Shown here in pieces: positions 6,478-61,550 of a stretch of DNA of 64,000 nt. Every line of letters starts with the position of its first letter. Position 1 is the stretch's first letter. The position numbers and the translations under genes were made by a program. The stretch comes from Babesia bigemina (lineage: Eukaryota). The stretch is from positions 2,294,001-2,358,000 of the forward strand of contig NC_027218.1 of assembly GCF_000981445.1 (NCBI RefSeq), written 5' to 3'. Under the pieces are notes generated by a model. It had not been told where the DNA came from, searched no databases, and worked only from the letters and a program-made list of their open reading frames with translations.

Positions 6478-7343
6478 TAGTTATCGCATTAATGTAGTCA
6501 TTACTTGCCTAGTGATGGATCGCACTACAGCACTAGTGGTTATTTGTGTTACTGCAGCATCTATGGCACTGTGGTGAGAGGAAAGCGTGACTGCTGCCAG
6601 GCATAACCAGACTCATGGAGACCACTTAATAAATAATATACCTCAGTACGTTGAGTTATGCGTTGCTTGTGAGACATATCTGCCATCCGACCTTGCCAGT
6701 GTAATTGGGCGCTGGGTGGAGAGCGACCAACGTAGGCAGCTGACAAGTGCCGTGCTACGTGAGTAACTATGTATCTGCGTTGTTACAACTTGCAATGCCA
6801 GCAATGTACGTCACTGGGAAATGTCACCGGGACTGCAACGTGATGGACAGTGGACGGCGTAGTTAGGTGGCATTGGTGGTAGCAGTGTATATTACTATTA
6901 TATTAACCAACCGATGTGGCTTAGGTAGGTACTTATTACATGACATGTAACAGCTGTCGTAGGCGGTGCCAACGTTGTGCGGTCTGTATTGTATGGAGCT
7001 GACTGCGCACCTGGCACCGGTTGACCTGCATGCCACCGCAAGGATGGTATCAACATGCTTTACCTCGGTAATACTGCAGCTGTGATAGCTGCATAGTTGT
7101 GATGTGAGTGGCGGTGCACTGGATGGTCATCATCTTGCTGCTACCGTGGCGCCGATGGGATACGGTCAGTGTCCTTCGCTGAGGTACGTGGTTCATGTCT
7201 GTGCTGGTTGATGGGACGGGCCACGCCTTGCTGAGTTGCGTGTTCATGAGTGGTTGGTGCGTGCTTGGTAGGTGCGTGTTGATGAGTGCGTTGCTAGGTG
7301 ATTGATGTTCGCAGGTTGAGGGGACTGGGAGGGGAGCGGGAAG

Positions 7344-7772
7344 ATGGGGGAGTGTAGAGATTGTGGTAAGAATTGTTATCTGCCTCACGTGTGTAATTGC
7401 TGCCCATGGTGTTGTGACAAATGTAATGGTAGTAGCTGTGATCAATGTTCGCAGGCAAACAGACCCCTCAGACTACGGAAGGTATGCAACGCTTTTCTAT
7501 GTGAGCTTAAAAAGGGTACTTGTACCAAGATTATCAGTTGTCCATGTAAGTGTTGTGAGCAGAAACGCTCTACTTCCGGCCACTCCTCTACATTCAGCGC
7601 TCATTCTCAGACCGACACTCAACCGCATACCTCCCCCGCCCCTTACATCATCGTCCCCGTCGCCCTCATCTTCATCGCCATATGCGTCATGACCACCTTC
7701 CGCATCCGGCCGTTCCACAAGGTCCGCGATTTCTGCGCCCGCAAAATGAACGGTTTACATCGCACTCATTAA
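7344..7772 (+). CDS. Small cysteine-rich protein with a C-terminal TM helix (ves-adjacent family)
   Basis: 142 aa with CNCCPWCCDKC, an S/T linker, hydrophobic PYIIVPVALIFIAICVM and a basic tail FRIRPFHKVR. Clear paralog of 52053-52487. Confidence 0.8.
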   Translation: MGECRDCGKNCYLPHVCNCCPWCCDKCNGSSCDQCSQANRPLRLRKVCNAFLCELKKGTCTKIISCPCKCCEQKRSTSGHSSTFSAHSQTDTQPHTSPAPYIIVPVALIFIAICVMTTFRIRPFHKVRDFCARKMNGLHRTH

Positions 7773-42705: not shown

Positions 42706-43306
42706 TCTGAGGCGTCTATATAAATCCGAGTCGTGCAAACATAACACAGAATCACTCGTTACAGCAACCACTTGCCACAGCTCGCAAATAGAGTATATGC
42801 AACGGAACTCAAAGGTAATGTAACGGCATAACGCCAATCACAGCATACAGTGGTTAAACGTGCCAAATTGGAACGTTGCCTAAAACGCAGCACAAACGTG
42901 TGCGAAATCAACCTGACAATCGAAATAGCACCCGATTTTGACGGAAACAGAGCAACAAACACCTACCTGCTGCGCAGGGACCGACACGGTCGACAGATGG
43001 CAGTGAAGCGCCGATAATAACACCCAATGGAGTTGGATGATTTGTTGTGGCAGACACTGCAAATGTACGTAAATCGATTATTATAACCGCGTCGTCGCAA
43101 AAGACCGCTGTAGGAGGGTGGCGAGCAATTTGCCGCAGCGGGGCGCGCGCCTTCACATACGTCCGGAGTCAACGTACGCACATCAGTATCGGACTTCTGC
43201 GGTTACACCGTAAATGATATAGGTGAGATGTAGGCAACAGGTTGGATAGGTGGCCCGCTGCATTATTACACACCCGCAAAGTACGGGCCCAGGCTCCGTC
43301 GCTGCC

Positions 43307-44227
43307 ATGGCGCCGAAAGCTGGCGTGAAAGGTAACGAGTGTCTACCTCAAGCGTATTCTAACGTGCTCGCAGGGACAGCTAAGAAGGCGGTGAACAATG
43401 TGCCGCTTAGGGAGCGGCTTATGGCCCAGGGTGTATACACAGCCTCAACCAGCACTGAAGCACGATCGGCCGCGGCACCGCTCTTCTCGCCACAGAAGCC
43501 GGCACGCAGGTCCGTGAAAGGGAAGGGCACTTCAACTAGCCTGCCGAAGGTCGGCATGTCGAGGTATTTCCAGCGCAAAGCAGACGTCAACGGCCGTACC
43601 TCGCTGTCTAACTCGATATCGCATGATACAGGTGCGTTGCATACGGGTGAATTGCGGCATTTCGCGTCAGTCGCTGACAATGAAGGGAGCTTCGCATTCA
43701 TGTTGGACCCCGTGGAGGTCGCCCGAGTAAAGGAGCATTCGGAGGCGCTGCTCGCCACCCTGACATGCGAAGAATCGGATTGCGCCGACGTGCAAATTGT
43801 CGATACTTCGTCCCTAGACCAGCTTGCGGCGGAAATGCCTGCTGCCGCGTTCGGGGGTTCGAGCTGCGTGCCGCTGCTGAATAACCCGCGCGGAGCGTGC
43901 TACGCCATGCTGCGCGTGCCGCCCACATCGCATTTTGGCCCATTCATCAACACCTCCGGGGTCATGGTGTTGATATTTATCGACCTTCCGCCGGGGAAAC
44001 TCTTCTACGAGAGCCTGAACCTCACCGGCAAGCGCAAGGTGCCCTGCCCAAGACAGGCACACGTGCTAGTGCTGCCAGACGACGTCTTCAAGCTGCACAA
44101 CGAAAGCAAAACCGGCGAAGCTTCGGTGCTCATGCTGTCGTGCCGCAGGGACGGGAAGGAGTTCAACATCGAGCAGCACGTGCAGGGCGCGTTCCTGACG
44201 CCGATCCGTCAATTACAGGAGGGGTGA
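43307..44227 (+). CDS. Protein with a C-terminal cupin-like domain reminiscent of CENP-C/Mif2
   Basis: Basic disordered N-half. The C-terminal pattern YAMLRVPP...VMVLIFI...HVLVLPDDVFKLHNESKTGEASVLML fits cupin strand spacing. Confidence 0.55.
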   Translation: MAPKAGVKGNECLPQAYSNVLAGTAKKAVNNVPLRERLMAQGVYTASTSTEARSAAAPLFSPQKPARRSVKGKGTSTSLPKVGMSRYFQRKADVNGRTSLSNSISHDTGALHTGELRHFASVADNEGSFAFMLDPVEVARVKEHSEALLATLTCEESDCADVQIVDTSSLDQLAAEMPAAAFGGSSCVPLLNNPRGACYAMLRVPPTSHFGPFINTSGVMVLIFIDLPPGKLFYESLNLTGKRKVPCPRQAHVLVLPDDVFKLHNESKTGEASVLMLSCRRDGKEFNIEQHVQGAFLTPIRQLQEG

Positions 44228-44433
44228 CGGCGCACCCTCCATATCGCAAGATACAACGAAGGCTCCCAGCATCCCGTTGCTGAACACACTGACACACGCT
44301 AGCTTCTAACTATTAGACGCGTTTTTGAGGTGCGCCGTCGCAGTCCACGTCGATGCGCTGTTGGCATTCGGCCGCTCGCCAGGGGCGCCTGACTTCGTTA
44401 CCGCCAGTGAGGCGCGCGTTGACACGGCAGAGC

Positions 44434-45053
44434 TCATTTTAGCTTCGCCGTGAGACGCACGATCTTGTCCTCAGTTATCTCGGGGTACTGCGATAATATC
44501 AGGTCGATCACCTGATCCTCCACGTCGCCCTGCAGCGGTCATGTGCGCAAAAGGCAGCGGGCTCACCTGGCAATCGATCTTGTCCATCTGACCAGGCACT
44601 CCCTTCACCACGCCGGCCCCCGAAGCAAACTGCTTCGCGAACAGCTTGGCGGCGGCCTCAAGCTTCACACCTGCAGACGCTGATGGGAGCCGTGGCACGC
44701 GCAGACGTACCGAAGAGGTGCAGACCAGTGACGCTGGTGACGACCTTGCGCTTGGAGCGCGTGCTGCGCTGCACCGTCACCTCCTGGCGCACCTCCGGCT
44801 TCTTCTTGCGCGGGGCGGCCGGAGGCGCGACTGCGATCTTCGACAGCTGCTCCGCCACGTCCTCGGCGCTGCCGAAAATCTCAGGGTAGCGACGCGCGCA
44901 CTCCTCACGGCACTCGCCGGACTCCCACTTGTCCCCGAAGTCGCAGAAGTCAAACGGCATACCGCAGCGCGGGCAGTATTCCACCTCGACGGCGGCCAAA
45001 GCGGGCACCTCGTCCTCGGAGACGCACTCTTCCGGCGCCTTGTCCTTAACCAT
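44434..45053 (-). CDS. DENR: Density-regulated protein / Tma22 (SUI1 domain), 3 exons
   Basis: VEYCPRCGMPFDFCDF zinc site, RSKRKVVTSVTGL, LFAKQFASGA and IDCQGDV. Introns at 44671-44710 and 44530-44566. Confidence 0.92.
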
Positions 45054-45256
45054 GGTGAAATAGCGGGTGTGTCAGCATATGGAGCCGACTGAAGGTGTTC
45101 CCGCGGCCACACCGCCGCTCAGCTCCGACGCGCGACGGACGGCCCGAGGGTCAGGGGGCGGACAGCAGCACCTAAAAACAGAAAAAGCACAGCAATGTGT
45201 ATCGTAACCAATCATTAGGCTGGCATTTTAGCCCGCGTGTTTTGCGATACCGGGGT

Positions 45257-47687
45257 TCAGAGACACGCCACCGAAAAAAGGTCGCGGCCGACTTCGCCCT
45301 GCGGCTTTTCTGGCTCCGCGCCAGACAGACTAGGGAGAACCGGTGCGCCAGATATGCCGCCGAGGACGTACGGACGCAGCCTTTCATGCATAGGGAACGC
45401 ACGCTCGCCCACGCACGACGCAATGTCTTTGTGGCTCAAAGTCTCGCGGTCGTAGAGCAGCTTGGCCAGCTTGTGCACCAGCTCAGCCTTCTCCTTCAGA
45501 AGCTCTTTGACGCGGGCGTACTGACCCTCGATGATGCTGCGCACCTCGTTGTCGATCAGGAGCGCAGTGCTGTCCGAGTACTCGCGGTAGAACCCGGCAC
45601 TGTCGTCACCGTCTCGCTGGTACGACACGAGGCCCAAAGCCGGGTTCATGCCCCACTTAGAGACGAAGGCGTAGCACATGCGGGTCACCTTGTGCAGGTC
45701 GTCCGCCGCTCCTGTGGTGATGCGACCAATGAAGATTTCCTCCGACGCACGGCCGCCCAAAATCACGGCGATCTTGTCCAGCAACGCCTCGCGGCTGAAC
45801 AGCGGCGTCTCATCAGCGATCTGCTGCGAGTAGCCCAAAGCACCGCTGCTGCGAGGGACTATGGACACCTTGAGCACGGGGTCGGCGTGCTCCAGCCACC
45901 ACCCAACCAGCGCGTGCCCGACCTCGTGGTACGCCACCACCAACTTCTGTTCGGGAGACATAAGCTGGTTGCTGCGGCGCAGACCCGCGACGATGCGCTC
46001 AATGGACGCTTCGAAGTCCATCAGGTCAACGCCGTCCGGAGACTTGCGCCGCGCAGCCTGGATGGCAGCCTCGTTTGCAACATTGGCGATCTGCGCACCC
46101 ACGAAGCCTGGTGTTAGCGCAGCCAAGCGACGGCCCAGGTCGTCCACATCCAGCAGCTTGTTCAACTTCAGCGGGGCCAAGTGCACCTTGAAAATCTCGT
46201 AACGCTCCTCCAGGTCGGGGCTGTTTATCGTGATTATGCGATCGAAGCGCCCGGGGCGCACGAGCGCAGGGTCCAGGATGTCGTGACGGTTGGTCCCGGC
46301 CAGCACGAGCACGCCGCTGCTCGCGTTGAAACCGTCCATCTCCACCAGAATCTGGTTCAGCGTGCTGTCGCGTTCGTCGTGGCTGACGAAGCCGCCCTTT
46401 CCCGCTCGCTTTTTACCCACGGCGTCAATCTCGTCGATGAACACGATGCTGGGCGCGTTCTCCCGGGCCTTCTTGAACAAACTACGCACCCTAGAAGGGC
46501 CAACACCCACATATATTTCGACGAAATCACTGCCGGAAATGAAATAGAACGGCACGTTCGCCTCGCCGGCGACCGCCTTCGCCAGCAGGGTCTTACCGGT
46601 ACCGGGAGCACCGCACAGCAACGCCCCCTTGGGGATCTTAGCGCCGTATTGCTCGTAGGCCTTCGGGTTCTTCAGATAATCCACGAACTCGCTAATCTCG
46701 AGCTTGGCCGAGTGCATTCCAGCCACATCTTTGAAGCGCACGCCAACCTTGAGCTCCTTGGCGTCGGTCAGGTTAAGGTTACGCATGCGGTGTACACGGT
46801 CAAGGTACTGACTGTTGTGCAAGAACCTCCACATAATTGCCGCCATATAGGCGACGGGAATGCCGACGATAACCGCATACTTCAGCACCTGTAACCACTC
46901 AACCTCCTCAACGTGCTTGACGGGAACGAAGTTCTCGGGGTGAATGCCTAGCAAACCCTGAAACGCGTTTGAGCGGGGAAATTATAATTTGGCATACCTG
47001 AATGTCGTCCAACTTCCTCTCCACCGCTTCAACCGATCGGATCCGAAAACTCACGACCTTCGGCACCGTCTTGGAGTCGCTGCGCAGTATACAACGACAC
47101 GACTTGCCGTTGACAATCAGTATTGTCTCAACGCAACCGCGCATCAAGTACTTTGACAAGAATTCCTGCATTGTTACTTCGTTAGGGAGCTCGTTGTAGG
47201 ATAGGACTTTGTATGACGCTAACGCTCCCAGCACGTAAAACAGAAGCCTGAACGGCTTTGCACACAGGAAGACGAAAGGGTTCTCGCCATCGTTTTTAGA
47301 GTCACCAGGGCCCTTGGGTTTGCCGGAAGAGTTGCCCATCTTGCCTTCCGATTTGGGGGGATCACTCGACGTACTGCTGTCGGCTTCGCCTCCCGAAGCC
47401 TTGGAGTCGGAACTCCCGCCGCGTCCTGCAAAACGACCGAAGCCGGAAGGTACCTTCTTGGAAAAGTGCCGTGAGCCGCGTATACCTGAAACACAAATAC
47501 GCAAAGTAGTATTTAAAATAGGCGGAGCACCGCAAATAACAGAGTGGAAGGCCCTGCCCTGTGAAGCCAGCCGAGTAAGCGCCCCCCCAGCCAACTCCGG
47601 CTCGCCTGAACGCAGTAGCCGGTATCCATTGGCGCCAAATAGCCGGCGCAATGCCCGGCAGCCAGGCGTTAACGCCGGCAGCGCCAT
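45257..47687 (-). CDS. Mitochondrial m-AAA protease, AFG3/paraplegin-like (FtsH family), 2 exons
   Basis: Presequence-like N-terminus and two TMs. Walker A GAPGTGKT, Walker B FIDEID, SRH RPGRFDR and the HEVGH zinc motif. Intron at 46958-46997. Confidence 0.93.
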
Positions 47688-48232
47688 GACTGAGACTTAC
47701 GCCGGTACAGCAACTGCGGGCCGCCGCGGTCCCTGGCAAGGCAGATGTGCCACGTATCTACGGCGCGATATATTCTAAAATCCTATATAACAAGCATCCG
47801 GTAAATAGGCCGCGGGTTGCCGGCGCCGTAGAGGTGGTCCACGGCAGCGGCGGGTGGCGGAACGACGTGACGTAAAAAGGAATGCCAGACACGGCACATA
47901 CACATATAACGGTAATAAAGTGTGCTTTTTAAACTGTATTGTTCTTACATCTCAAGAATCCACGGATGGGCGCGCCGCCGGCCCCGATTAACCGTACGAG
48001 AAGGGCTCTACACATTCGTTCCACTTTGCCCGCCTAATACGCGACAGACGGTCTTCGCGGCACCACAGACTGCGGCGAGTACTAGAAGAGCATAATAAAC
48101 AGCTATAGTGGCTTAGAAGCATTGGTGTTATTCTCACTTGGAGTTACCTTCCACGTCGTTGCCAAGCCGAGCTGCAAAATTTTGTCGCGAAAAAATGACC
48201 GTGTAATATCAAGCGTCATACAGGATGTTCAT

Positions 48233-51060
48233 ATGAGCCAGTTGGGTACTATGAAGTTGTCTAAGAAGTACAAGCGGCTGCAGCGGATTGCCGCAAGGTA
48301 CAAGGCAATCACGGAGGCCGTGACGAGATTGGAGCACGTTCAAGATGATGACAGCACAGCAACAATCCAGGATTATGCTAACGCGGGCAGACGTGCATCT
48401 GATGCAACTACGCATCCATCGAAACGTACAAACAATGAGAAATCGCAGCCATTAAAAGATGCCGCTACTACAAGCAGTGCACGGAAAGGAGCCAAACGAC
48501 AGCGCAAAGCAGATATAGCTTCGAATTCCACTGATGGGCACCAGCAGGATAGATTCGAAGCGTTAGACATCGACCGGAGTATTGTAGAATGGCTGAAAAC
48601 AAAGAACATTCTAGTTATGACGCGGGTGCAGAAATTGGCCATACCGAAGTTCATGAAGAGTGGAACCGACGTTTTGGTGCAGTCACATACAGGATCGGGC
48701 AAGACTCTGTGCTTCGTCGTGCCAATTTTGGACATGTTCATGAAGCGCGCAAGGCATTTTCCCGATAGTGGATTGATCGCCGTTTTCGCCGTCATAATGC
48801 TGCCCACACGAGAACTGGCGACTCAAGTGCATTCCGTCGTATCCGACGCAATCGCACACATGGAGAGTGGCGTCGAAGAAGGATCGGAGATGTGTGGCGT
48901 GCCGCTGTCGTGTCTGGTGCTCATTGGTGGTTCTCCGGTGGAGCATGACGTCAAAGCCATCACGAAGCTAAAGACCGTTCGCGGTGCCAGACCGCTTGTC
49001 ATAGCGACACCCGGGAGGCTGCACCACCTGATAGATATGCTGCAGCAAGAAATGCTGTGGACGTTCAAGGATGTCACCACGCTGGTGCTCGACGAGGCGG
49101 ACCGGTTGCTGGAGATGGGATACCAGGCCGACATGACGGCAATTATGGGAAACATGCCCAAACAACGCAAGACCGGTTTCTTCTCTGCAACCTTACCGAA
49201 AGAGGTGTTGGAATTTGCAAAAATGATTCTGAACAACTACCATTTCATCAACGCCGATGATGGAGCATCGCACAAAGGGGTTGCTTCCCACGGAGGTGAG
49301 GAACTTCAACCAGAATCAGAGATGGGTCACGCCGAAGGTGCGGCAACATATGCAACTCCGGTTACGCTTAAGAACTACTACCTCATACTTGACCCGCGGG
49401 AAAAGCTGCACTTCGTAGTACTATTGCTGGAGCATCTCAGGATGACCGGCGTAAGAAAGTGTGCCATTTTCTTTCTAACGTGCGATCTGGTGGACTACTT
49501 TTCACTCATGATTGCAAAGTGCCTGGCCGATGGTAATGATCAGGCGAAAGAAGGCGTGCGGACCATCCTCTACAAAATTCATCGCAAAATGCCCACCGCC
49601 AGACGTCAGCTAAATTTGGACGCATTCCGGAAAATGCCGGACGCTGGTGTCTCGAAAACGAAATCCGACGGAGGGCCCAAACGTCTGAATGCCGCTGCAG
49701 ATCCTGCTAGCAATACGCTGCAGGTGTTGCTTTGTACCGACATATTCTCTAGGGGGATAGACATCCCGCAGATAGAGTGGGTTATACAGTACGATGCACC
49801 ACAAGACCCTAACTTCTACGTACACCGTATAGGGAGGGTATCACGTGCAGGGGCGTCTGGCAACGCTATCTTGCTGCTGAACAACAGCGAGGAAGCGTAC
49901 GTGCAGTTCCAAATAAATCGCAAAATACCACTCATGCCACTACCCAGCAAAGTACTAGAGGGCGCCACAAGCTACTACGACAGGATCTCAGAAACCGAAT
50001 CGGCATTGCCTCACCATTTACACAGCGAATGTACTACGGTGGCCAATGGCACATCATACATCGACTATCTGCAAGAAACAGCTCCCGAACAACCGGTTCT
50101 TCCCTGGATCCACACCTGCAAGATGCTGTCGTACATACGGGCACAACTTACCACAGACAGAGCGTTGCTGTTAACGGCGACAAAGGCATTTGTGTCCTAC
50201 ACTCGGGCCTATTCCGAACACAGGCTTAAGAGTATATTCGAACAAAAGGTACGTTCGCGCCATCATCGAGTGGTGATATAGCGCCATACGGTGTTTGTCT
50301 TATTTTTAACTTACCGGTGTTAGTATGTATCATATTCCATCTATTATGATCATGTGAAATGCTACTGCGCGCGTAAACATATAGATTCAGTCGATGCGTT
50401 ATGTGACGCTGTAAACGATAATTTTAATAACACGTTTGTTGGTCACATACTCATAACTCTGCAGAATGTCGACTATGGAGCACTTGCCACTTCTTTTGGC
50501 GTACTCAAGGTGCCCAGAGTTAAGGAAATACTCGGCAAAAAGTTGCAAAATTTCGCCAATAGCGATACCGATGTAAATTCGGTGGCTTTCAAAAACGAGG
50601 GGCAAGAGAGGGATAGGCTGAAAAAGCTCCAGCAAAAAAATAACGAAACTAAACCCCACGTGCGGGAAAAGAAGCCAGAGCCCCAACCGAAGGTGCAGAG
50701 GACTAGGAGCGAAAAACGTGTAGTTAAACGGTAAGTATCATCCACACCCTTATATATCTATCATCAGCGAAAATGCGTTACGGGAGTGGGAAGAACTCGC
50801 ACGCGAAGAGGCGCTTGCAAAAAAACTTAAAAAACGAAAAATAACTCGGGAACAGTACGAAAAACTCCTAAGCAAGCAGGAACAAAGCGATTCCGATGAA
50901 TCAGATACGTCCGACGAAAGCGACCATGATGCACAGGTTTCAGAAAACGACTCGGACTGGGAAACAGTAAGTCACTTGTTCACTTTGGTCATATCATTCT
51001 CAGGAACTGGACAACTTTGTCAAGGAGTGGAAAGATAAACCAAAGACAGCAAGCATATGA
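48233..51060 (+). CDS. DDX55: DEAD-box RNA helicase, SPB4/DDX55-like (4 exons)
   Basis: TGSGKT, PTRELA, TPGRL, DEAD, SAT, RGID and HRIGR motifs, plus KAFVSY.RAY.EH and C-terminal EWEELAREE.LAKKLKK. Introns at about 50249-50464, 50731-50767 and 50967-51003. Confidence 0.9.
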
Positions 51061-51814
51061 ATCTTAGTCATAATACATAGCTCTGTTGCTGTTTGGGTGT
51101 AGCATGGTGATTTGTTGTCTGTTTTTCGCACTTATATCAGTATTGGAGTGAATCTGTTGCATTAACTTTAGATGCTGAAATTATATACCCATTATCGATT
51201 AACTGGTAAAATATGTGGGGTGGATGGGGATAGGAGGATTTGTTAGATTCAAATCATTGAGCCGCTAAAAAAATAGTATTGAGCATATTTGTATTTAATG
51301 CGTCCGTTTACAAGGTAGTAACATATGATGGGTGTTACAAAACTAATTAAGCATTGAACACGTCAAACTATATGACACGGTGATAGGCGCAAGAGCGGCA
51401 GCTACCGGGGAAATAAGATGGATAAGGGCATTGTATTTCATTACTGTTGTCGTCTTAAATGAGTGAGTGAGTAAGTCAGCAGTGGCGACGAAAAGCGTAC
51501 GTGAAGGTACGATTCAGGTGGTAAGTCACAGCATCAATGTTGTAAGTACGTAATATTACTGAGACTGCGAACGCTTTTGGCAGCAAAGAGTGCCAGTACG
51601 TCTGAAGAAAAGGTACACCAGGTTACTATGATTAATTCTACTCAAGGTTCCAGTGGTAATACGATGGTATACTCTAGATACCTCGTGAAAACCTCGCTAG
51701 GTACCTAGAGGTGCACGCTCGCGAAACATTTAACGGTAAGTTATTACACAATCAAAGTCCTGTTGATGTAGTATACCATGAGATAATTGCTATAATCGAA
51801 ATTGGGGAAGTTGA

Positions 51815-51960
51815 TTAATGATCGCTATGCAAACCGTTCATCTTGGGGGCGCAGAAATTGCGGACCTTGTGGAACGGCCGAATGCGGAAGATGGTCATGA
51901 AGCGGATGACGAGGATGATGAGGGAGGCGGGGACGATGATGATGGGAAGGACGGCGGGGG
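51815..51960 (-). pseudogene. Orphan duplicate of the Cys-rich family C-terminal TM/tail segment
   Basis: Reads IIIVPASLIILVIRFMTIFRIRPFHKVRNFCAPKMNGLHSDH*, nearly colinear with the end of 7344-7772, but has no Cys-rich N-terminus. Confidence 0.65.
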
Positions 51961-52052
51961 TAATGGTCACCTCACTGCTCATGTGACTGATCATCAGTGC
52001 AATCACTACTGTCTAGCACATTAGATGTCAGTTGCCAGTTAGGTAATTGTCA

Positions 52053-52487
52053 TCAGCTGCGCAGTAGATACCGCACCCTGTGGAACGGCCGGATGCGGAA
52101 GTAGACCATGACGCAGATGACGAGGATGATGAGGGCGACGGGGGCGATGATGTAAGGGGCGGGGTTGGTGGTAGACTGTTGAGTGTCGGTTTGTAGCTGA
52201 GCTGTGCGGGAAGAAGAGGAACCGGAGGCAGAGACGGTATGAGAAGAAGTAGACAGCTGTTGACGAGAGGTATAGCGTTTCTGCACACAACAAGTACAAT
52301 CGCATGTGTCTTCGTTACACTGAGCACATCGCGAAGGATTGCAAGGGTCTCCTCCACTTTTGCGCAAATGAGCAAACTTGAGACATGGTAAACAGCGTAT
52401 ATTACATACATTACAACAGTACGGACAACAAAAGCACTCCACATTCTCTCGGCATTTCTTGCCGCACGTACACTTCAATACTCCCAT
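52053..52487 (-). CDS. Small cysteine-rich protein with a C-terminal TM helix (paralog of 7344)
   Basis: 144 aa with CFCCPYCCNVC and PAPYIIAPVALIILVICVMVYFRIRPFHRVR. Confidence 0.8.
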   Translation of the reverse strand: MGVLKCTCGKKCRENVECFCCPYCCNVCNIRCLPCLKFAHLRKSGGDPCNPSRCAQCNEDTCDCTCCVQKRYTSRQQLSTSSHTVSASGSSSSRTAQLQTDTQQSTTNPAPYIIAPVALIILVICVMVYFRIRPFHRVRYLLRS

Positions 52488-52500
52488 CTTCCCCTCTCCC

Positions 52501-53343
52501 TCCCAGTCCCCTCAGCCTGCGAGCATATCAATCACCTAGCAACGCACTCACCAACTGCAACACGTACCACTGACGCTCCCACTCCCCTCAACCTGCAAAC
52601 ATGTCAACCACTTACGCAAGCACTCACCAACTACAACACGTACCACTGACGCTCCCACTCCCCTCAACCTGCAAACATATCAATCACCTAGCAACGCACT
52701 CACCAACTGCAACACGTACCACTGCCGCTCCCACTCCCCTCAATCTGCAAACATGTCAACCACTTACGCAAGCACTCACCAACTACAACACGTACCACTG
52801 ACGCTCCCACTCCCCTCAACCTGCAAACATATCAATCACCTAGCAACGCACTCACCAACTGCAACACGTACCACTGCCGCTCCCAGTCCTGTCAACCTGC
52901 AAACATGTCAACCACTTACGCAAGCACTCACCAACTACAACACGTACCACTGACGCTCCCACTCCCCTCAACCTGCAAACATATCAATCACCTAGCAAAG
53001 CACTCACCAACTGCAACACGTACCACTGCCACTCCCAGTCCCCTCAACCTGCAACCATATCAATCACCTAGCAACGCACTCACCAACTGCAACACGTACC
53101 ACTGCCACTCCCAGTCCCCTCAACCTGCGAACATATCAATCACCTAGCAACGCACTCACCAACTGCAACACGTACCACTGCCGCTACCAGTCCCCTCAGC
53201 CTGCAAACATGTCAATCACTCAAGCAGCACTCACCAACTGCAACACTACCACTCCCAGTCCCCTCAACCTGCGAACATGTCAATCACCTATGCAAGCACT
53301 CACCAACTGCGACAGCTACCACTGCCGCGCCCAGTCCCCTCAT
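52501..53343 (-). repeat. 76-bp tandem array (11 units), each an intron-like 35 nt plus an exon-like 41 nt
   Basis: The acceptor-side ctgc on + recurs at 52517, 52593, 52669, 52745, 52821, 52897, 52973, 53049, 53125, 53201 and 53269. The period is 76, with one shortened unit. Confidence 0.95.
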
Positions 53344-53860
53344 CAACACTCACCCTCACCCCTGTATCCCCCCAGCCCAGGCCACCGACACCCACGCTGC
53401 CCGGGATACCACAGCTGCCCTGACGCGGCGCATGTGATTAGCACCAACTGTCACTCTAAATTATTCACTATTCGCAACGCCATTAAAATTGCAGCGAACC
53501 CCGTGCGCTCAACTCCCACAGTGCAGCAGCACCGTGCTACGAGCCGCGGTATCGGCGCCATACTGGCGGAGCGTGTCGGCTACGTGCCTAAATGTGATAT
53601 TAACAATCGCTACATCGCTGCCTATAAACGCTACTTAACGAGGCCAACGCGTATTACGCCACCCTGCCAGCGACTCGCAACACACGACTTAGGTCACCCG
53701 CCGCGGCCATCACGACCGCCTACGTTAGCGACCAATCACCCAGCCTCACGTGACACTCACTCAATAGGCAACGTGGACACCTCTCACAGTCAACGCCTAA
53801 CTCAACGCACCAGGCAATCAACGTGCTACAACACCCACCAAATTACGGTTCATCCACCAG

Positions 53861-54408
53861 CTCAACACTTTGCCTGGGTGCTAGGTTAGCACCTTGCCTG
53901 GGTGCTAGGTCAACACGTTGCCTGGTTGCTTGCTTAGCACTTAGCTTGTGTGCCAGCTTAGCACTTTGCCTGTGTGCTAGGTCAACACATTGCCTGGTTG
54001 CCAGCTTAGCACGTTGCCTGAGTGCTAGCTTTTCACTTTGCCTGAGTGCCAGCTCAGCACTTTGCCTGGGGGCTAGATTAGCACTTATCCTGGGTGCTAG
54101 CCTAGCACTTAGCTTGTGTGCTAGCTTAGCACTTTGCCTGGTTGCTAGCTTACCACGTTGCCTGGTTGCTTGCTTAGCACGTTGCCTGGGTGCTAGCTTA
54201 CCACGTTGCCTGGCTGCTAGCTTAGCACGTTGCCTGTGTGCTAGGTTACCACTTAGCCTGGGTGCTAGGTTACCACTTTGCCTGGGTGCTAGCTTAGCAC
54301 GTTGCCTGGGTGCTAGCTTAGCACGTTGCCTGTGTGCTAGGTTACCACTTAGCCTGGGTGCTAGCTTAGCAGTTTGCCTGGGTGCTAGGTCAACACGTTG
54401 CTTGGTCG
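53861..54408. repeat. 24-bp minisatellite (about 23 degenerate units), consensus TTGCCTGGGTGCTAGCTTAGCACG
   Basis: Periodicity is directly visible and appears as ARCLGASL repeats in the shadow ORF. Confidence 0.9.
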
Positions 54409-54547: not shown

Positions 54548-57500
54548 TTACGGCTGTAGATACGATATCTTGGCAAGCCTTCCGACTTGCGCTGCAGCCA
54601 ACAATGACTGCGCCGTTATCTTGTGCGACGACGGTATCCTCAGGTGTGACCTGATGTGCAGCACATCCAGTCTGCCAACCATTACGCAGATGAGGTAGAA
54701 GAGAGATAGTGACCAGAGCGCGACGGTCATCCACAGGAACGGTCCGCGGATGGCGAACATGAAATTATCAATGGCTTTGAAAAACTTCACAAGATGTGAG
54801 TCCTTCTCAAATGCCTCCGCAAATACATAGCAGAAATCTCTGCACGTGCGTTTTGTATGCGATTGTCTATCCCCGTTCAGCCTCTCCGGATTGCCGAGAA
54901 CGAAGCCGTATTTTGCCAATGTTGGCAGCGTAGCATTACAGCTGACAATGGATTTGCAGTTGCGATCGTGATATCGTGGCGGATCTTGCGCTATGGTTGT
55001 AGTTGGACACCCCTTGACGCACGCTTTCACGTGACAATTCGATCCCCTGGCACCGCATTTGGAATTGCACTCATCATACAATTTCTTAAGCAGATCGTAG
55101 AACGTCGCCGTCAGGTAAACGATCCACGACAAATATTTATCGGCGTGTTTTGACGAGAACGTCTCGTAGATGGATTGACTGATGGGACGGAGATAAGGAC
55201 CGCATACGACGGCTTCCCTTGATAAGCATACGAGACTGCCCAGACTACCATCGGAGTGGCCCTTCTTCAATGCTGAGTGACTAGGGGTAAATAAGTAGTA
55301 GACTTTCAACTCACCATAACTACGTCCGAAATTGGCAGCTTTAACACTCTCTTCAAATGCCTCTCTCTTGTGTCCGTTACCACTCATACCCCAGCGATCG
55401 GTGAGATGATAGTAGAAGCTGAACATGTCCGCCAGCGTTTTCGGCGCACTAGGCAGAAGGCAGTTCAAGTAACTGCACAGTCTAGTGAGAGGGGAGTTAG
55501 GACGGCCACAGAAATCGTAAAGCACATCGCATATATCCTGGCCAATCATCGTATGCGACGCGATGGCACTGATGTCAGCGAAGCCCATTGGCGTCCTGCA
55601 CGGCATACCAGGTGTACTACCACACGTGCCACATGACAGACTCGATCCCCTAGCTGCTACCGAATGCGGCAGGTGGCCTTTCAATCCGTCCTCCAAGAAC
55701 GATTGCAGTGGCGACTTGACGCCGCAGTTGGGATATTGCCCACCCATTTGGTTGCCACTTTGGTCGTGCCTTTGGTCGCAGTCTTGCTTAGGGCACTGCT
55801 TCGTGTTGCACTGCCAGCCCGACCCACCGATGTACTTGCCGTAGTGGCAGTCCCTCCAGCCGCTTAGCTGAGCATTGTGCTTACACTGCTGCAGCAGGAA
55901 GTACAGCTGGTGGTAGAGGCGCTTAAGCAGGTCGAACAACGTACACAGCAGTTGAATCATGTTGGCAGGGTACTCTAATTTCAGCGAGTTGCTGGAGAAA
56001 TCACACGCGTAGATTCCGTCCTTGTGACCGTGCCCTAGGATAGCGGTGAGGACGGCGTGGGAGTCAGATGAGACCTTGTAGAGCGCTTCGTCGATATGCG
56101 TGTGTTGGAAGGGAGACGGATGCGCTTCGAAGGGTTGCAGCGTTTTAGTACCCGGCCGTTCTTTGTCCTCCTTCATGAACTCAGATTTAATTTGCGCCTT
56201 GAGCCTCTCGTACACGGGGTTGAACTGCAGGCCGCAGCACCAGACAAGAATTTCGTAAACGGAGCATGGAGCCCTTGGTTTGTCAACACGGATAAGGTGG
56301 CAGACTTTGAGGTACGTATTTAAGCAATCATAGAGTTTTCGGATGAGACCACTTTCCTCCGCGATGGTTACACCTAGCTCGTCCGACCCGGATGTCGATT
56401 GACGAATGCCGATGACGGGAGATGACAGTTGGCTGAACAGATTATGCGTTTCGTTGGTAAGGTGTTTGAGAATGCTGCTACCATTGAAGTCATTTCGGTG
56501 ATTCAGTTCGCCGTGCTCAGCGTTCTCAGGACGACGGACGTCATACCCGTTGTCGCGGAAGAAGAGAGCGTGGAGGCTGGAGGTAGGTGCTTGAGCATCA
56601 TAGATTTTATGGGTGGTCCAATCGTATATATCAAGGCCATGCTTAAAGGTAGTCAATTCTTGATATAAGATGGGCGTGATGGTCAAGCCGATTTTCGCGT
56701 AGTGTCCCCGTTCCTCGTCTTGCCATTGTCTCCCGGAGTAACTGCTTACGTAGGTTTTGTCAAGTTCGTCGACCAAAGCAGCAATTCCCCCTTTCAGGGC
56801 TTGTAACATGACCGTCGAAGAGGTGCCGAATTGCTGAGGAGCGAGTTGGCCGAGAGTAATCTTAATTGTGTCTAAGTTATCTCTAAATTGGTGATTGAAA
56901 TGTTCGGAAGATTTGAGTCCATCGAGCAAAGTTAGATGAGCATTATGCAAGGGCTCGTATTTTTGAAAGTCTGATATGAAGTCTGTCTGTGACTTCAAAT
57001 AATGACAAAAACGTCTGGAGGCGTTGTATGCTCTCTGAGCTGCCTGGCTGAGTGGAGACTTCTCTGGAGGAGAGTGGGTGGTCTTGATGTCCTTAATGAC
57101 TTTAATTCCTTTATCCGTTCCAATGAAATACTTTTCTATTTTATTCATGAAACCTTTAACGCCCAAGTCCAACTCCTTAGTGATCAAGCCAGGCAGCGGT
57201 TGTAATTCCGCCTCAGCTTTCGTTGAAAAAGACACGAGCAGACCCTGTAGAGATGTAACGTACTGTTCTCTGGCCTTAGCAATTAGAGCTTTCTTAGCGC
57301 TCTCCACTTGTGAATCGACGTCTCTTCCTAGTGCCTGGATGGTGGCGGTACCGGAGTGGTCAACACTTCCGAGGAATCTTTTGGCCGTCTTGAGTGCATC
57401 TGCTACCGGGCCTATTAGGTTGTGAAGATCATCATGAATTTTTTGAAGGCCGTTGCCACCGTTATTCAGGGATATGTACTTTTTGAGTTGAGTCAATTGC

Positions 57501-60118
57501 TCACTGATACCCCTACTGACAACTGAAATTTCGCCAGTGAGCGCGGCAAAATTGGCCTTAATTTGGTGGGTCCAATTTGACAGAGCGTCTTTGATTGCAT
57601 CGACGTTCATGGCTTCAATTCCAGATTTAACAGTTTTTATGGCCACGTCTACGGCTTTGGCGTAATTCGGATCGTCGTCGACGCTGGTTTGGAACACCTG
57701 TTCAAAATTATCGTGGAGATTCTTAATTTCTTCTTTTAACAGCTCCAATGCTGCGTCGAGCTTAACGCCTGGTTTATCAGATTTAAGTTGGCTCCCTAGA
57801 TCTCTAACTTGCGCTATGGCCTGCTCCAATTTGTTGTGAATATTCGACGTTGTCTTCAATTTATCTAGTTGATCACCAATATGTTTGGCAACTGATGCGA
57901 GAGACGCAAGTGTGGCCCTCACAGCGAGCTCGAGATAATATTTCTTATGACCTGTCTGCCTATCCGACTGTACCAATTCAGAGTGAAGTTTGACCTCACC
58001 TTCCATCAATCTAATTATACTACTTTCTTTATTCCACAAATCAGTTGATAATTTGTTCATATAATTCAAAATGTACAAAAATTTCTGATCCATTGTGTTT
58101 GTGGCGTCGAAGTTATTTGGGGGATGTATCTCTTGGAGTTTTTCTGTGATATGGCGCGTCACAATTGGTGCAACAAAGGCGTGTAATGCTGGAGTTCCCC
58201 GTCCACTGAGTTTTCCGTTGAAATAACCATATCCCTTGTTTTCCTCAACGTACTTGTCAATCCAGCCCTTAACCGGTTCCCTACGAATGATGTCCGTCAC
58301 CCAGTCTTTGAATATTACGCCGAAATAATCTTCTCCTTTTTTAAACTTACCAGCGAAAGCATTGATGCCTTTAACTACATCAGTAAGACTTGAATTGCCA
58401 GTATCGGTCAATAAATCAACGCACTCTAAAATTTCCTTTTTTATTGCATCCCAATTCTGATATATACTTTCATCCGTGTCATCGCCGTGTTCATTTTTCA
58501 CTCCAACGTATCCTTTAATACTCATCACCTTGCTTTTAATATGTCGCATAATCTCGTCAATCGTCTTATCATTTCTCACCGGCCCAGGTTCGCCAGTGAC
58601 CTTATTATAGAGCCTCCCAATCGCCTCGTTAACGTTATTAACAAACCCTGTCAGTCCACTTTTCTCACCACTAATATACGTCTCAAGCGCAATCTTGGTC
58701 TTTTCCAACTCCTTAATGGCATCATCAATTGGTATCTTGTTACTCGTCAGACCGTCGTTAACTTGCTCCAGTATTTTTTTCACGTTGTCTTCCGTCTTGG
58801 TGACATCTCCATCTGCCTTTTGAATCCATTCTTGCAACCGTTCAACAAACTGCGGCAGCTCTTTGTTGATCTTCTCGAGCTGCACGAACATCTTCTGCAC
58901 CATCTGCCTCAAATCGCGGATCAACTCCTTCACTTTATTACCGATTTCGCGATTGACACACGTACCAACACCTACTAACGTTGTGTTAATACACGCCTCC
59001 ATGCTCTTAAAGCGCTGCTTTTCCTTCGTCGCCAACTCACTCAACCTGGTTTTCTCATGCACCATGGTCTTATGTACGTTATCTATTCTATCACGTAATT
59101 TATCACTAAGATCATTAATTGCGTTTCTAGTTGTTTCATCATTATTCTGCATATCTAAAGTTTTATTAAAGTCGGCGGCTCTCTTTTCATATTCTGCCAA
59201 ACGCCTCTCCATCTCTTCCGCAACTTGTTCATATTTCAAGGTCTCATCTGCAACACGATTATTTTGTACAATCTCACTTACCGATTTTTTGAGTCTCTTC
59301 ATCTCTCTGTCGAAATCTGTTATTTTGTTTATGACATGGTTGTTGGAATTTCTGACACTCTCATTATACCCCCGCACCCCTGCAACCACACTTTCAATCG
59401 CAACATTAAAACCGTTTTTACCGCGGTGTTTATTTTGCTTAAGACTCTCAATTGCATCATCTAAAGTATTTTTATGCTGCCCTAAATGCTCTTTGATGTT
59501 ACTGAGAACACCATAGAAAAACGCCATCACCCCGTCACACAGCCTATCCAGGTCGGAGTACACAATGCCATGGCCAGTGTAGCCTTTGGTCTCAGAGTTG
59601 AAGCCGAGGAAGGTTTCGAGGCCGGTGCAGAGGTTTGTAAGTAAGTCAGTACATTTTTGATGATTTTTGTCAGTAAATATGCTAAGCTTATTAGTAAGAT
59701 CTTCAAGTTGTTTCTCACGCTCTTTAATGCCATCCAAGGCTTTCTTAGTAGCATCATCATAACGACGGGAGTGGGAATCGGAGCATGATTTTTTCATATC
59801 AGTTATTTGCTGCTTAGTAAAACCATTTTTAGGCTGATCGGCATTGTCAGAATCTTTAGCATGTTTCATCAGCTTATCAATATAGGCACAGTTAGAGAGC
59901 TTATCATTATACTTAACAGGGCATTCAAGTTTAGATTTTTCGGATTGGAGGGAGTTAGTAGCCTTATCTATATCCTCCGCAATCAACTTTTTCAAAGCTT
60001 TTGCCAACTCATCAAGACCATCACTGTCACCATTCCCATACCTAACCTGGATCAACCAGTCGATGGACTCACGGAGATTCTCTGGGCAGTCCACCAGTTT
60101 CTTAAATTGCGGCGTCAC
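54548..60118 (-). CDS. Variant erythrocyte surface antigen-like (ves1-like, long coiled-coil type) protein; start codon anomalous
   Basis: N-terminal KKLVDCPENLRESIDWLIQV and GIVYSDLDRLCDGVM, a long helical middle, and a Cys-rich C-domain plus TM/tail (IRGPFLWMTVALWSLSLFYL...RLDVLHIRSHL) homologous to the 322-6477 C-terminus. Confidence 0.85.
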   Translation of the reverse strand: MTPQFKKLVDCPENLRESIDWLIQVRYGNGDSDGLDELAKALKKLIAEDIDKATNSLQSEKSKLECPVKYNDKLSNCAYIDKLMKHAKDSDNADQPKNGFTKQQITDMKKSCSDSHSRRYDDATKKALDGIKEREKQLEDLTNKLSIFTDKNHQKCTDLLTNLCTGLETFLGFNSETKGYTGHGIVYSDLDRLCDGVMAFFYGVLSNIKEHLGQHKNTLDDAIESLKQNKHRGKNGFNVAIESVVAGVRGYNESVRNSNNHVINKITDFDREMKRLKKSVSEIVQNNRVADETLKYEQVAEEMERRLAEYEKRAADFNKTLDMQNNDETTRNAINDLSDKLRDRIDNVHKTMVHEKTRLSELATKEKQRFKSMEACINTTLVGVGTCVNREIGNKVKELIRDLRQMVQKMFVQLEKINKELPQFVERLQEWIQKADGDVTKTEDNVKKILEQVNDGLTSNKIPIDDAIKELEKTKIALETYISGEKSGLTGFVNNVNEAIGRLYNKVTGEPGPVRNDKTIDEIMRHIKSKVMSIKGYVGVKNEHGDDTDESIYQNWDAIKKEILECVDLLTDTGNSSLTDVVKGINAFAGKFKKGEDYFGVIFKDWVTDIIRREPVKGWIDKYVEENKGYGYFNGKLSGRGTPALHAFVAPIVTRHITEKLQEIHPPNNFDATNTMDQKFLYILNYMNKLSTDLWNKESSIIRLMEGEVKLHSELVQSDRQTGHKKYYLELAVRATLASLASVAKHIGDQLDKLKTTSNIHNKLEQAIAQVRDLGSQLKSDKPGVKLDAALELLKEEIKNLHDNFEQVFQTSVDDDPNYAKAVDVAIKTVKSGIEAMNVDAIKDALSNWTHQIKANFAALTGEISVVSRGISEQLTQLKKYISLNNGGNGLQKIHDDLHNLIGPVADALKTAKRFLGSVDHSGTATIQALGRDVDSQVESAKKALIAKAREQYVTSLQGLLVSFSTKAEAELQPLPGLITKELDLGVKGFMNKIEKYFIGTDKGIKVIKDIKTTHSPPEKSPLSQAAQRAYNASRRFCHYLKSQTDFISDFQKYEPLHNAHLTLLDGLKSSEHFNHQFRDNLDTIKITLGQLAPQQFGTSSTVMLQALKGGIAALVDELDKTYVSSYSGRQWQDEERGHYAKIGLTITPILYQELTTFKHGLDIYDWTTHKIYDAQAPTSSLHALFFRDNGYDVRRPENAEHGELNHRNDFNGSSILKHLTNETHNLFSQLSSPVIGIRQSTSGSDELGVTIAEESGLIRKLYDCLNTYLKVCHLIRVDKPRAPCSVYEILVWCCGLQFNPVYERLKAQIKSEFMKEDKERPGTKTLQPFEAHPSPFQHTHIDEALYKVSSDSHAVLTAILGHGHKDGIYACDFSSNSLKLEYPANMIQLLCTLFDLLKRLYHQLYFLLQQCKHNAQLSGWRDCHYGKYIGGSGWQCNTKQCPKQDCDQRHDQSGNQMGGQYPNCGVKSPLQSFLEDGLKGHLPHSVAARGSSLSCGTCGSTPGMPCRTPMGFADISAIASHTMIGQDICDVLYDFCGRPNSPLTRLCSYLNCLLPSAPKTLADMFSFYYHLTDRWGMSGNGHKREAFEESVKAANFGRSYGELKVYYLFTPSHSALKKGHSDGSLGSLVCLSREAVVCGPYLRPISQSIYETFSSKHADKYLSWIVYLTATFYDLLKKLYDECNSKCGARGSNCHVKACVKGCPTTTIAQDPPRYHDRNCKSIVSCNATLPTLAKYGFVLGNPERLNGDRQSHTKRTCRDFCYVFAEAFEKDSHLVKFFKAIDNFMFAIRGPFLWMTVALWSLSLFYLICVMVGRLDVLHIRSHLRIPSSHKITAQSLLAAAQVGRLAKISYLQP

Positions 60119-61550
60119 ATGTCTTCATAACTAACGTAGGGAGCAGCAACTTTGTTGAACAGGACTATTTGGGCTTCGGTTGATTATATTGTTCTTTCAT
60201 ATTCTTTACTGCCAAAATCGAGAAGGTGTTGTATGCCATCTGGGTTTTTTATTCATCAACCAAAATATAGTGTACATCATTCATACAGCACAATATTACG
60301 TATGCGAAATTCTTAACGGAATCCACAGATGCCTTTAATGTTGAGGAGTTGCTTCTGTCACTGCCTCGCCACGTTGGACAAGATGTCTGGGCCCATAGAG
60401 TGATGGCGTCATACGCTTTATTGCAGTTTCAGAACATCCGAAACAATGTTACACGCTACATTGAGTCAGTGAAATTTCCGAATTGTCATGTTTTAGGCCT
60501 CCTTAAATTCAGACACCCAACATACATCGTTATGGGATAGGCGAGGGAAAAGAAGCAGGTGATTTACAATTGGATGTCGATTGTCAGGACGATGACCAAG
60601 ATTTGAAAAATGGGGTGAGTGGCGAAAGCCAGTTCTACGTGTTCAATGCCCCTCAGCTCAATAAGGGGTGAGAGCATTTGGGTAGGGATGTGAAGAGTTA
60701 GCAGCATGGCAAGTTACTTTCCGACATGACTACGGCATTGAAAATGGGATTAGTCCAAATGGATCGTCTACTTAGTGAGCGAGCTGGGTTGTCAGCTGAA
60801 GTGGACAGTGTCATGGGTATTATGGTGCAATGCTGCTGGAGGGTGACTGGGAGGGGAACGGCGGGCGAGGTTGTCGCTGTGGCAAGATCACACATAGATA
60901 TCGAATTGCAAAGCATGAACCACGTGCATCGATTGGTGCAGCAATATATAATCTGCACTTTGTTCGGCCAACGCAATGTGGGGGTAATATTAGCAATCTC
61001 GAGTGGTCATTGGGGTGACGCTGATGAGACAACCGTGTCTATCCAGGCGACAGCGGCACGCTGCATAGTGGTTGCCTTAATGTTCGCCGAACGCCGATGT
61101 GAGACAGCTTGGCGGCGTACCAATGCGGGGTGAGGATAGGCGTCCTATATTCCGCCCGGAACCCTCATGGAGTAAACAGTGCTCCAGCCGTTCATGTCAG
61201 TCACACTACCGTGCTGCCAAATACATAGACCTGCGGTCTTCCCTTCTCAGGTAGGTGGGATGGTGGTATCGTTTCAGTCTTTCATCTATTCTGCTAAGGC
61301 GGAGTGGACAAGTGATTGGCTGCGGGTCCACGCTTGTCGCGCTTGGCTTTCGTACGATGAGATACTTCCGTCACTCAGCTTTGTGCTATCTAGCCTACTC
61401 ACCTAGTGCAGTTAGCGTCTTGAATATGGTGTTTTGTGAGGGGAGTCAATTTAGAGATATCCCCCCTTTAGTGTGTCCTGGTGGACACCTTCTGCTCGCC
61501 AGACTTGGCGTTATGTAAACATAGCGTATTGGTCCTTTAAAGTACAAAAA
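60119..61550. promoter_or_regulatory. Probable bidirectional promoter/5' UTR region between head-to-head ves-like genes
   Basis: 1.43 kb between divergent 5' ends. Contains a block (61211-61286) similar to the leader of the 322 gene. Confidence 0.55.

What the first reader, a model, noticed from the sequence alone, without database searches (positions are those of the whole stretch)
52501..53343. Tandem array of 11 intron+exon cassettes in a 5' leader, each intron carrying a uORF start
Seen in sequence: on the minus strand every unit reads GTGAGTgc...(34-35 nt)...GCAG followed by an exon-like segment of about 41 nt (gttgaggggagtgggagcgtcagtggtacgtgttgcagttg). All 11 units keep GTGAG and GCAG despite substitutions elsewhere. 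Their length matches the 34-41 nt introns inferred for housekeeping genes in this window. Each intron has an ATG 10 nt before its 3' end that opens a 4-codon uORF across the acceptor (ATG TTT GCA GGT TGA = MFAG*, with variants such as MLAG* and MFAD*). The exon parts contain no ATG. The last acceptor lies 29 nt before the ATG of the Cys-rich TM gene. Inference: only a fully spliced leader is uORF-free, so the array could act as a splicing-dependent translational lock or rheostat tuned by copy number. The paralog at 7344 has a single recognisable unit. I know of no described Babesia system like this.
Basis: partly seen in the sequence, partly recalled or inferred. Interest (0 to 1): 0.9.

Follow-up and report, generated by a model that had tools for sequence, protein, structure and literature searches.

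The report
Repeated intron cassettes in gene leader
A cattle-parasite (Babesia) gene is preceded by eleven head-to-tail copies of a 76-base unit that likely works as a short intron plus a non-coding exon, and predicted proteins of many related genes show traces of the same unit; no RNA evidence was obtained, and control of protein output by it is untested.

Summary
The array is real: 11 units of 76 bp (minus strand, 53303-52488) before a 144-aa Cys-rich membrane ORF. Each unit's 34-35 nt part scores as a strong intron on a matrix built from 12 other introns of this window (16.2-18.1; 0 of 3000 shuffles reach 18.1). It is not a one-locus oddity: all 36 named relatives found are B. bigemina hypothetical proteins, and 23 of their gene models carry translations of the cassette exon (up to 7 copies), in three frames, so the array is leader, not coding. 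The uORF-lock reading is weaker than claimed: the 11 ATGs are one inherited event, no better conserved than background (P 0.42); 8 of 12 ordinary introns here hold an ATG; three more ATGs lie upstream of any strong intron. No RNA test was possible (0 reads in 4 of 4 runs, also over neighbouring genes). Verdict: a likely spliced, copy-number-variable leader minisatellite of an undescribed, mis-annotated gene family; a regulated rheostat is possible (about 15%) but unsupported.

The parts
52488..53303 (-). Array of 11 cassettes (34-35 nt intron-like part + 34/41/29 nt exon-like part); the 3' half is an A/B dimer repeated three times
   Evidence: lag-2 mismatches 0-4 against lag-1 8-12 in the 3' units
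53269..53303 (-). Intron-like part 1 (35 nt), uATG 53278
   Evidence: matrix score 16.4
53201..53234 (-). Intron-like part 2 (34 nt), uATG 53210
   Evidence: score 16.9
53125..53159 (-). Intron-like part 3 (35 nt), uATG 53134
   Evidence: score 17.6
53049..53083 (-). Intron-like part 4 (35 nt), uATG 53058 (MVAG*)
   Evidence: score 17.6
52973..53007 (-). Intron-like part 5 (35 nt), uATG 52982
   Evidence: score 18.1
52897..52931 (-). Intron-like part 6 (35 nt), uATG 52906
   Evidence: score 16.9
52821..52855 (-). Intron-like part 7 (35 nt), uATG 52830
   Evidence: score 18.1
52745..52779 (-). Intron-like part 8 (35 nt), uATG 52754 (MFAD*)
   Evidence: score 16.6
52669..52703 (-). Intron-like part 9 (35 nt), uATG 52678
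   Evidence: score 18.1
52593..52627 (-). Intron-like part 10 (35 nt), uATG 52602
   Evidence: score 16.9
52517..52551 (-). Intron-like part 11 (35 nt), uATG 52526 (MLAG*, in frame with the main ORF, stop before it)
   Evidence: score 16.2
53304..53353 (-). Partial unit 0: donor-like GTGAGT at 53353 and ATG 53343 (19 codons); an 85-nt intron 53353-53269 would remove it
   Evidence: score 14.8
53354..53433 (-). Upstream stretch with ATG 53433 (25-codon ORF); 6 of 22 paralogue models begin with the matching peptide
53591..53597 (-). Initiator-like TYAYWWW, aligned with a like motif (6898-6904) in the paralogue spacer; candidate start site only
52053..52487 (-). 144-aa ORF: 18 Cys in the first 70 residues, Ser/Thr linker, one C-terminal hydrophobic segment, no hydrophobic N-terminus
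   Evidence: relatives
7237..7772 (+). Paralogue: partial unit 0 plus one cassette (acceptor 7314, uATG 7305) and 142-aa ORF 7344-7772, 867 bp after a ves1-like stop
54548..59869 (-). ves1-like ORF upstream on the same strand; stop 2061 bp before the Cys-rich ATG (context)

Best explanation
The array is a tandem amplification of one 76-bp unit that likely works as a short intron plus a non-coding exon in the inferred 5' leader of a B. bigemina family of small Cys-rich, predicted membrane proteins. Shown: the repeat, its strong splice signals on the gene's strand, the stop before the main ATG, the A/B dimer structure. Inferred: the array is transcribed; each 35-nt (or 51-nt, from a second donor) intron is removed, giving a G-rich, ATG-free stretch of about 430 nt; units are gained and lost by unequal exchange or slippage, so paralogues differ in number. 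The ATG sits in the branch-to-acceptor stretch of the ancestral intron and was copied along. A retained intron would add a 4-codon uORF, so copy number would passively lower the share of clean mRNA (arithmetic: 57% at 5% retention per intron, 31% at 10%), but nothing shows this is selected or regulated.
For: Matrix from 12 other window introns: array introns 16.2-18.1, real introns leave-one-out 1.1-17.5, fraction of 5878 decoy GT..AG pairs at or above 16.2 = 0.0005, 0 of 3000 shuffled units reach 18.1, best plus-strand pair -5.8. Length fits 31-40 nt host introns. 23 of 36 named relatives carry cassette-exon peptides, 14 carry two or more, up to 7; control 0 hits in 10943 aa of unrelated window ORFs against 62 in 2745 aa. 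Gene finders trained on B. bovis cut at the same donor and acceptor in 20 junctions of 11 of 22 models. Models cross the start context in three frames, 3/13/8 of 24. Recent dimer duplication. ATG in 8 of 12 ordinary introns; ATG not conserved above background.
Against: No transcript evidence. The leader would be about 430 nt or more spliced (866-1108 nt unspliced) against a median of 152 nt in B. bovis. Splice-site invariance within the array is only borderline (P 0.063). The matrix rests on 12 introns from my own gene prediction, only some backed by Pfam. Paralogue evidence is ab initio protein models, not DNA or RNA; 13 of 36 show no cassette peptide (most start at their own ATG, so they say nothing). 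The paralogue at 7344 has lost the GTGAGT donor.
Confidence: 0.55

Rival explanations
1. Selected splicing-dependent lock or rheostat: retention of the introns is regulated by stage or clone, the uORFs repress translation, and unit number sets the output of each family member.
For: uATG and stop present in 11 of 11 units and in the paralogue; exon parts free of ATG; every strong donor uses the same acceptor and removes the ATG; family-wide variable number; uORF control of a variant antigen is known in Plasmodium var2csa (PMC4061111).
Against: One ancestral event; P(ATG invariant) 0.42, P(ATG+TGA) 0.17, 33 of 76 3-mers invariant; 8 of 12 ordinary introns hold ATG; strong consensus sites predict efficient, not regulated, splicing (inference); 4-codon uORFs about 60 nt apart usually allow re-initiation (recalled); extra upstream ATGs not inside strong introns (best scores 7.6 or less).
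Confidence: 0.15
2. Most of the array lies upstream of the start site: a promoter-side minisatellite copied from an old intron-exon junction, with at most the last unit spliced.
For: Median B. bovis 5' UTR 152 nt; a tandem repeat keeps any motif it starts with; single-unit paralogue.
Against: No TYAYWWW on the minus strand inside the array; the nearest upstream is 53597-53591 and aligns with one in the paralogue, though only 801 of 2023 B. bovis start regions have the motif; sequence upstream of unit 0 is shared by 6 of 22 paralogue models.
Confidence: 0.15
3. The array is transcribed but mostly skipped: the unit-0 donor (53353) or any donor joins a far acceptor, giving a ladder of leader lengths down to one large intron.
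For: Identical sites in every unit; donor 53353 scores 14.8; a second donor in the exon part scores 16.8-17.5; gene finders use three donor types (20, 10, 7 junctions).
Against: Host introns are mostly 31-40 nt, which favours pairing of nearest sites (inference).
Confidence: 0.08
4. The repeats matter as G-rich DNA or RNA structure (G-quadruplex) that promotes recombination beside ves genes or slows scanning; the intron look is incidental.
For: G4Hunter-type score 1.2 or more in 9 of 11 exon parts, up to 2.16; allowing quadruplexes lowers folding energy by only 13-14 kcal/mol with a single small motif.
Against: Many other window positions reach 1.2; does not explain splice-site scores.
Confidence: 0.04
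5. The exon parts are coding micro-exons that extend the protein's N-terminus, as the public gene models of paralogues assume.
For: 23 of 36 annotated paralogues include them as coding.
Against: 41 nt is not a multiple of 3 and one frame has a stop at every acceptor; here a TGA lies in frame just after the last acceptor; models cross the start context in three frames, only 3 of 24 in frame; the models are ab initio.
Confidence: 0.03

Closest known systems
5' UTR introns whose retention adds uORFs (general eukaryotic mechanism; recalled, and search listing only)
   Same: Intron in the leader holds an ATG that splicing removes.
   Different: Usually one intron; here 11 near-identical copies with variable number across a family.
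Plasmodium var2csa uORF and uAUG-rich var 5' UTRs (PMC4061111, passages)
   Same: Upstream ATGs before a multi-copy, parasite-specific membrane protein gene in an apicomplexan.
   Different: var2csa has one 360-bp uORF in the mature mRNA; here uORFs are 4 codons and sit in predicted introns; no repression shown.
Tandem repeats that alter splicing (human spl-TRs, PMC10078293, passages; CBS exon-intron VNTR, recalled)
   Same: Repeat length next to or across splice sites.
   Different: Here every unit carries a full donor, branch-like site and acceptor and lies in a leader.
Copy-number-variable exon-intron arrays in coding genes (LPA kringle IV-2, Schistosoma micro-exon genes; recalled)
   Same: Tandem duplication of an intron+exon unit.
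   Different: Those exons keep a reading frame; these are 41 nt, with stops.
B. bovis ves1-beta (up to 11 introns) and smORF, B. bigemina ves2 (PMC4066756)
   Same: Multi-copy genes at ves loci; many short introns.
   Different: ves1-beta introns are described for the gene structure, not as a leader repeat; smORF and ves2 are predicted secreted, this family has a C-terminal hydrophobic segment and no hydrophobic N-terminus; the paper found no smORF in B. bigemina.

Membership tests
Short spliceosomal intron (Babesia type) | GT...AG ends with host-like donor and acceptor context | tested here: met
   11 of 11 score 16.2-18.1 on a matrix from 12 other window introns; decoy fraction 0.0005
Short spliceosomal intron (Babesia type) | Length in the host range | tested here: met
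   34-35 nt against 31-40 nt in 10 of 12 window introns
Short spliceosomal intron (Babesia type) | Branch-like YTRAY before the acceptor | tested here: inconclusive
   Present in the unit tested; pattern written after seeing the unit, shuffle rate 0.00025; no housekeeping intron matched that strict pattern
Short spliceosomal intron (Babesia type) | Removed from the RNA | not testable with these tools
   No RNA holder listed; 0 reads over 43000-53800 in 4 of 4 runs
5' UTR element | Outside the coding frame | tested here: met
   In-frame TGA after the last acceptor; three frames among 24 paralogue models
5' UTR element | Downstream of the transcription start | not testable with these tools
   Only an initiator-like motif at 53597-53591
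Minisatellite / VNTR | Head-to-tail units of 10-100 bp | tested here: met
   76 bp x 11.2
Minisatellite / VNTR | Copy number varies between alleles or isolates | not testable with these tools
   No second allele obtained; variation seen only between paralogues (1 at 7344, 11 here, 1-7 peptides in models)
Regulatory uORF (var2csa type) | uATG conserved above neighbouring sequence | tested here: not met
   P 0.42; 33 of 76 3-mers invariant; low power, one ancestral unit
Regulatory uORF (var2csa type) | Present in mature mRNA and represses the main ORF | not testable with these tools
   Needs transcripts and reporters
Coding micro-exon array | Exons keep an open frame (lengths multiple of 3) | tested here: not met
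   41-nt exons, stop in one frame, mixed frames in models
smORF / ves2 (downstream gene) | Signal peptide, no membrane anchor, homology to ves1 5' end (ves2) | tested here: not met
   N-terminal 19-residue hydropathy max 1.22, C-terminal 2.82; relatives are all hypothetical proteins, none named ves or smORF

The most novel reading that the evidence does not exclude
A family of about 40 B. bigemina membrane-protein genes, two of the three in this window directly behind a ves1-like gene, sets each member's protein output with an expandable chain of intron-gated uORFs: every cassette is an independent splice-or-repress step, so repeat number is a recombination-tunable volume knob and a change in splicing efficiency between tick and cattle stages could switch the family on or off.
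Probability: 0.15. Interest if true: 0.8.

Novelty: new variant of a known kind. Interest (0 to 1): 0.5.

Why it matters
Even in the plain reading it flags an apparently undescribed B. bigemina family (36 named relatives plus 3 in this window) whose public models often read leader repeats as protein and, in 21 of 24 such models, pass the likely start codon out of frame. It offers a natural series (1 to 11 units) for asking how a spliceosome handles chains of identical 35-nt introns. If retention is regulated, it would be a copy-number dial on translation next to variant-antigen genes, which my searches did not find described.

Tried and rejected
No whole genome is held. RNA: no RNA holder listed; 4 of the 24 listed runs were laid, 0 reads anywhere in 43000-53800, so no test; the other 20 runs were not read. 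Metagenome pattern scan: 0 loci. DNA of paralogous leaders outside the window was not obtained, so unit numbers there rest on protein models. Pfam for the Cys-rich proteins: no hit at cut-off. Atlas: best 0.79, a lead of no weight. Longer homologues or fusions: none among 95 candidates, weak evidence. Earlier scan notes: nothing in 3 look-ups. Loose pattern GTRAGT..YAG is met by 19% of shuffled units, so it proves little. My gene prediction gave many false introns on non-coding strands and in ves genes; only 12 in housekeeping genes were kept, chosen by eye. Plus-strand ORF 53209-53889 and a plus-strand splicing reading rejected (best score -5.8). A 64-nt 3' intron (52076-52013) adding a second membrane segment matches 3 of 22 models but scores -5.1: not accepted. 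Spacings printed are one base too long (61 and 24 nt are right). One G[DE]WE peptide hit (P0017) was spurious; one search drops that pattern.

Full report
Observation. The array is in the sequence as described. TRF finds period 76, 11.2 copies, 88% matches at 52500-53342. On the minus strand 11 units begin GTGAGTGC between 53303 and 52551; the GT..GCAG part is 35 nt in 10 and 34 nt in 1; exon parts are 34, 41 (nine) and 29 nt. Each has an ATG 10 nt before the acceptor giving MFAG* (8), MVAG*, MFAD* or MLAG*. The joined exon parts (432 nt) hold no ATG. A partial unit 0 at 53353-53304 carries a further ATG (53343), and three more lie at 53433, 53483 and 53561.

Context. The array lies between a ves1-like ORF (54548-59869, minus; Atlas 0.96-0.97 to clusters with VESA1_N) and a 144-aa ORF (52487-52053) with 18 Cys in its first 70 residues and one C-terminal hydrophobic segment. 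The paralogue at 7344 also follows a ves1-like gene on the same strand and the two spacers share blocks. A third, more distant relative at 12363 shares the Cys pattern but no cassette was found before it. All 36 named relatives found are B. bigemina hypothetical proteins; a 37th hit is a 59-aa ORF of this window (51994-51815). The 144-aa protein itself is not in the collection.

Is the unit an intron? I predicted genes in the window, kept 12 introns of housekeeping genes by eye, and found Pfam profile continuity across several (CTNNBL 96/99 and 264/268, SUI1 27/28, CTE_SPB4 31/35). Ten of 12 are 31-40 nt. A matrix from these 12 scores the array introns 16.2-18.1; the real introns score 1.1-17.5 leave-one-out; 0.0005 of 5878 decoy GT..AG pairs reach 16.2; 0 of 3000 shuffled units reach 18.1; the best plus-strand pair scores -5.8. 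So the ancestral unit is intron-like beyond chance, on the gene's strand. A second donor in the exon part (51-nt intron, 16.8-17.5) uses the same acceptor and also removes the ATG. Against: invariance of the splice sites among units is only borderline, because 57 of 76 columns are invariant (P 0.063; 2 of 76 shifts), and no RNA test was possible.

Family-wide feature. The public models of relatives are ab initio, from gene finders trained on B. bovis (PMC4066756 section 8). Many begin with translations of the cassette exon: 23 of 36 have at least one, 14 have two or more, up to 7; the same patterns give 0 hits in 10943 aa of unrelated window ORFs against 62 in 2745 aa of the first 22 relatives. 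These models are not evidence of splicing, only of the repeat and of its splice-like signals, and the counts are lower bounds; most of the 13 models without such peptides start at their own ATG and say nothing. The 24 models with such peptides (one by a variant pattern) cross the start context in three frames, 3, 13 and 8, and at this locus a TGA lies in frame after the last acceptor, so the array is not conserved coding sequence. In the 3' units, lag-2 neighbours differ by 0-4 bases and lag-1 by 8-12: an A/B dimer was recently triplicated, as expected from unequal exchange or slippage (inference).

The uORF claim. The 11 ATGs descend from one. The ATG is no more invariant than other 3-mers (P 0.42; 33 of 76) and 8 of 12 ordinary introns here contain one. 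ATG in the intron and none in the exon is what an ordinary 5' UTR intron gives. Whether the spliced leader is uORF-free depends on the start site: unit 0's ATG can be removed by an 85-nt intron (score 14.8), but those at 53433-53561 sit in no strong intron (7.6 or less). The one B. bovis-type initiator motif (TYAYWWW, PMC4148916) listed on this strand between 52000 and 53600 is at 53597-53591 and aligns with one in the paralogue; if used, extra uORFs stay. That motif marks only 801 of 2023 start regions, and the implied leader is long against a 152-nt median. The test of ATG conservation has low power, so a selected role is not excluded.

Mechanism. Most likely (0.55): a leader intron+exon unit amplified as a minisatellite, spliced efficiently, with variable number among paralogues; a retained intron would add a short uORF, so copy number may passively lower output. 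Shown: repeat, splice signals, non-coding position, dimer structure. Inferred: transcription, splicing, mode of expansion, any effect on translation. Rivals: regulated lock (0.15), array upstream of the start (0.15), skipping ladder (0.08), G-rich structure (0.04), coding micro-exons (0.03).

Known and new. It works like a uATG-bearing 5' UTR intron and is a minisatellite; it fails the tests for a coding micro-exon array and, as far as tested, for a conserved regulatory uORF. Papers seen: PMC4066756 (abstract, passages, sections 8, 20, first part of 22), PMC4148916 (parts 1-2 of 6), PMC4061111 and PMC10078293 (passages); others as search listings only; no supplements were read, and those of PMC4066756 may list this family. 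CBS VNTR, LPA kringle IV-2, Schistosoma micro-exon genes and re-initiation after short uORFs are recalled. Searches found no description of this array or family; the library lacks most subscription papers. Verdict: real, new variant of a known kind, interest 0.5; rheostat case 0.15 likely, 0.8 if true.

Noticed in passing
window 53859-54388: Second minisatellite, 24 bp x 22.1 copies (82% matches), starting about 160 bp after the ves1-like stop; absent from the paralogue spacer.
   Followed up: no
window 51815-51994 (-): 59-aa ORF with a second hydrophobic segment, 79% like the 3' end of the 7344 paralogue; it is in the protein collection on its own (P0037). A 64-nt intron could join it to the Cys-rich ORF but scores poorly.
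   Followed up: partly
window 12363-12800 (+): Third, distant family member: same Cys spacing with CCPWCC, no cassette found upstream, not directly behind a ves1-like ORF.
   Followed up: partly
window about 61550-64000 (+) and 54548-59869 (-): A gene resembling 322-6477 (read by eye; same 30-bp repeats) runs off the window end, head-to-head with the ves1-like ORF: a divergent ves pair as in the locus type described in PMC4066756.
   Followed up: no
window 53420-53820 (-) and 6640-7000 (+): Conserved blocks in the spacers between ves1-like stop and cassette in both loci, candidates for shared promoter or terminator elements.
   Followed up: partly
window 6925-6953 (+): Possible further 29-nt leader intron in the paralogue (score 13.5) that would remove two ATGs.
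   Followed up: no
P0002-P0038: Family members end in one of two conserved membrane tails, and some models carry both; 11 of 36 keep a CC-x-W-CC motif in frame, which may bind metal (inference).
   Followed up: partly
window 50249-50464 (+): 216-nt intron inside the SPB4-like helicase C-terminal domain (Pfam 1-31 then 35-52), long for this window.
   Followed up: no
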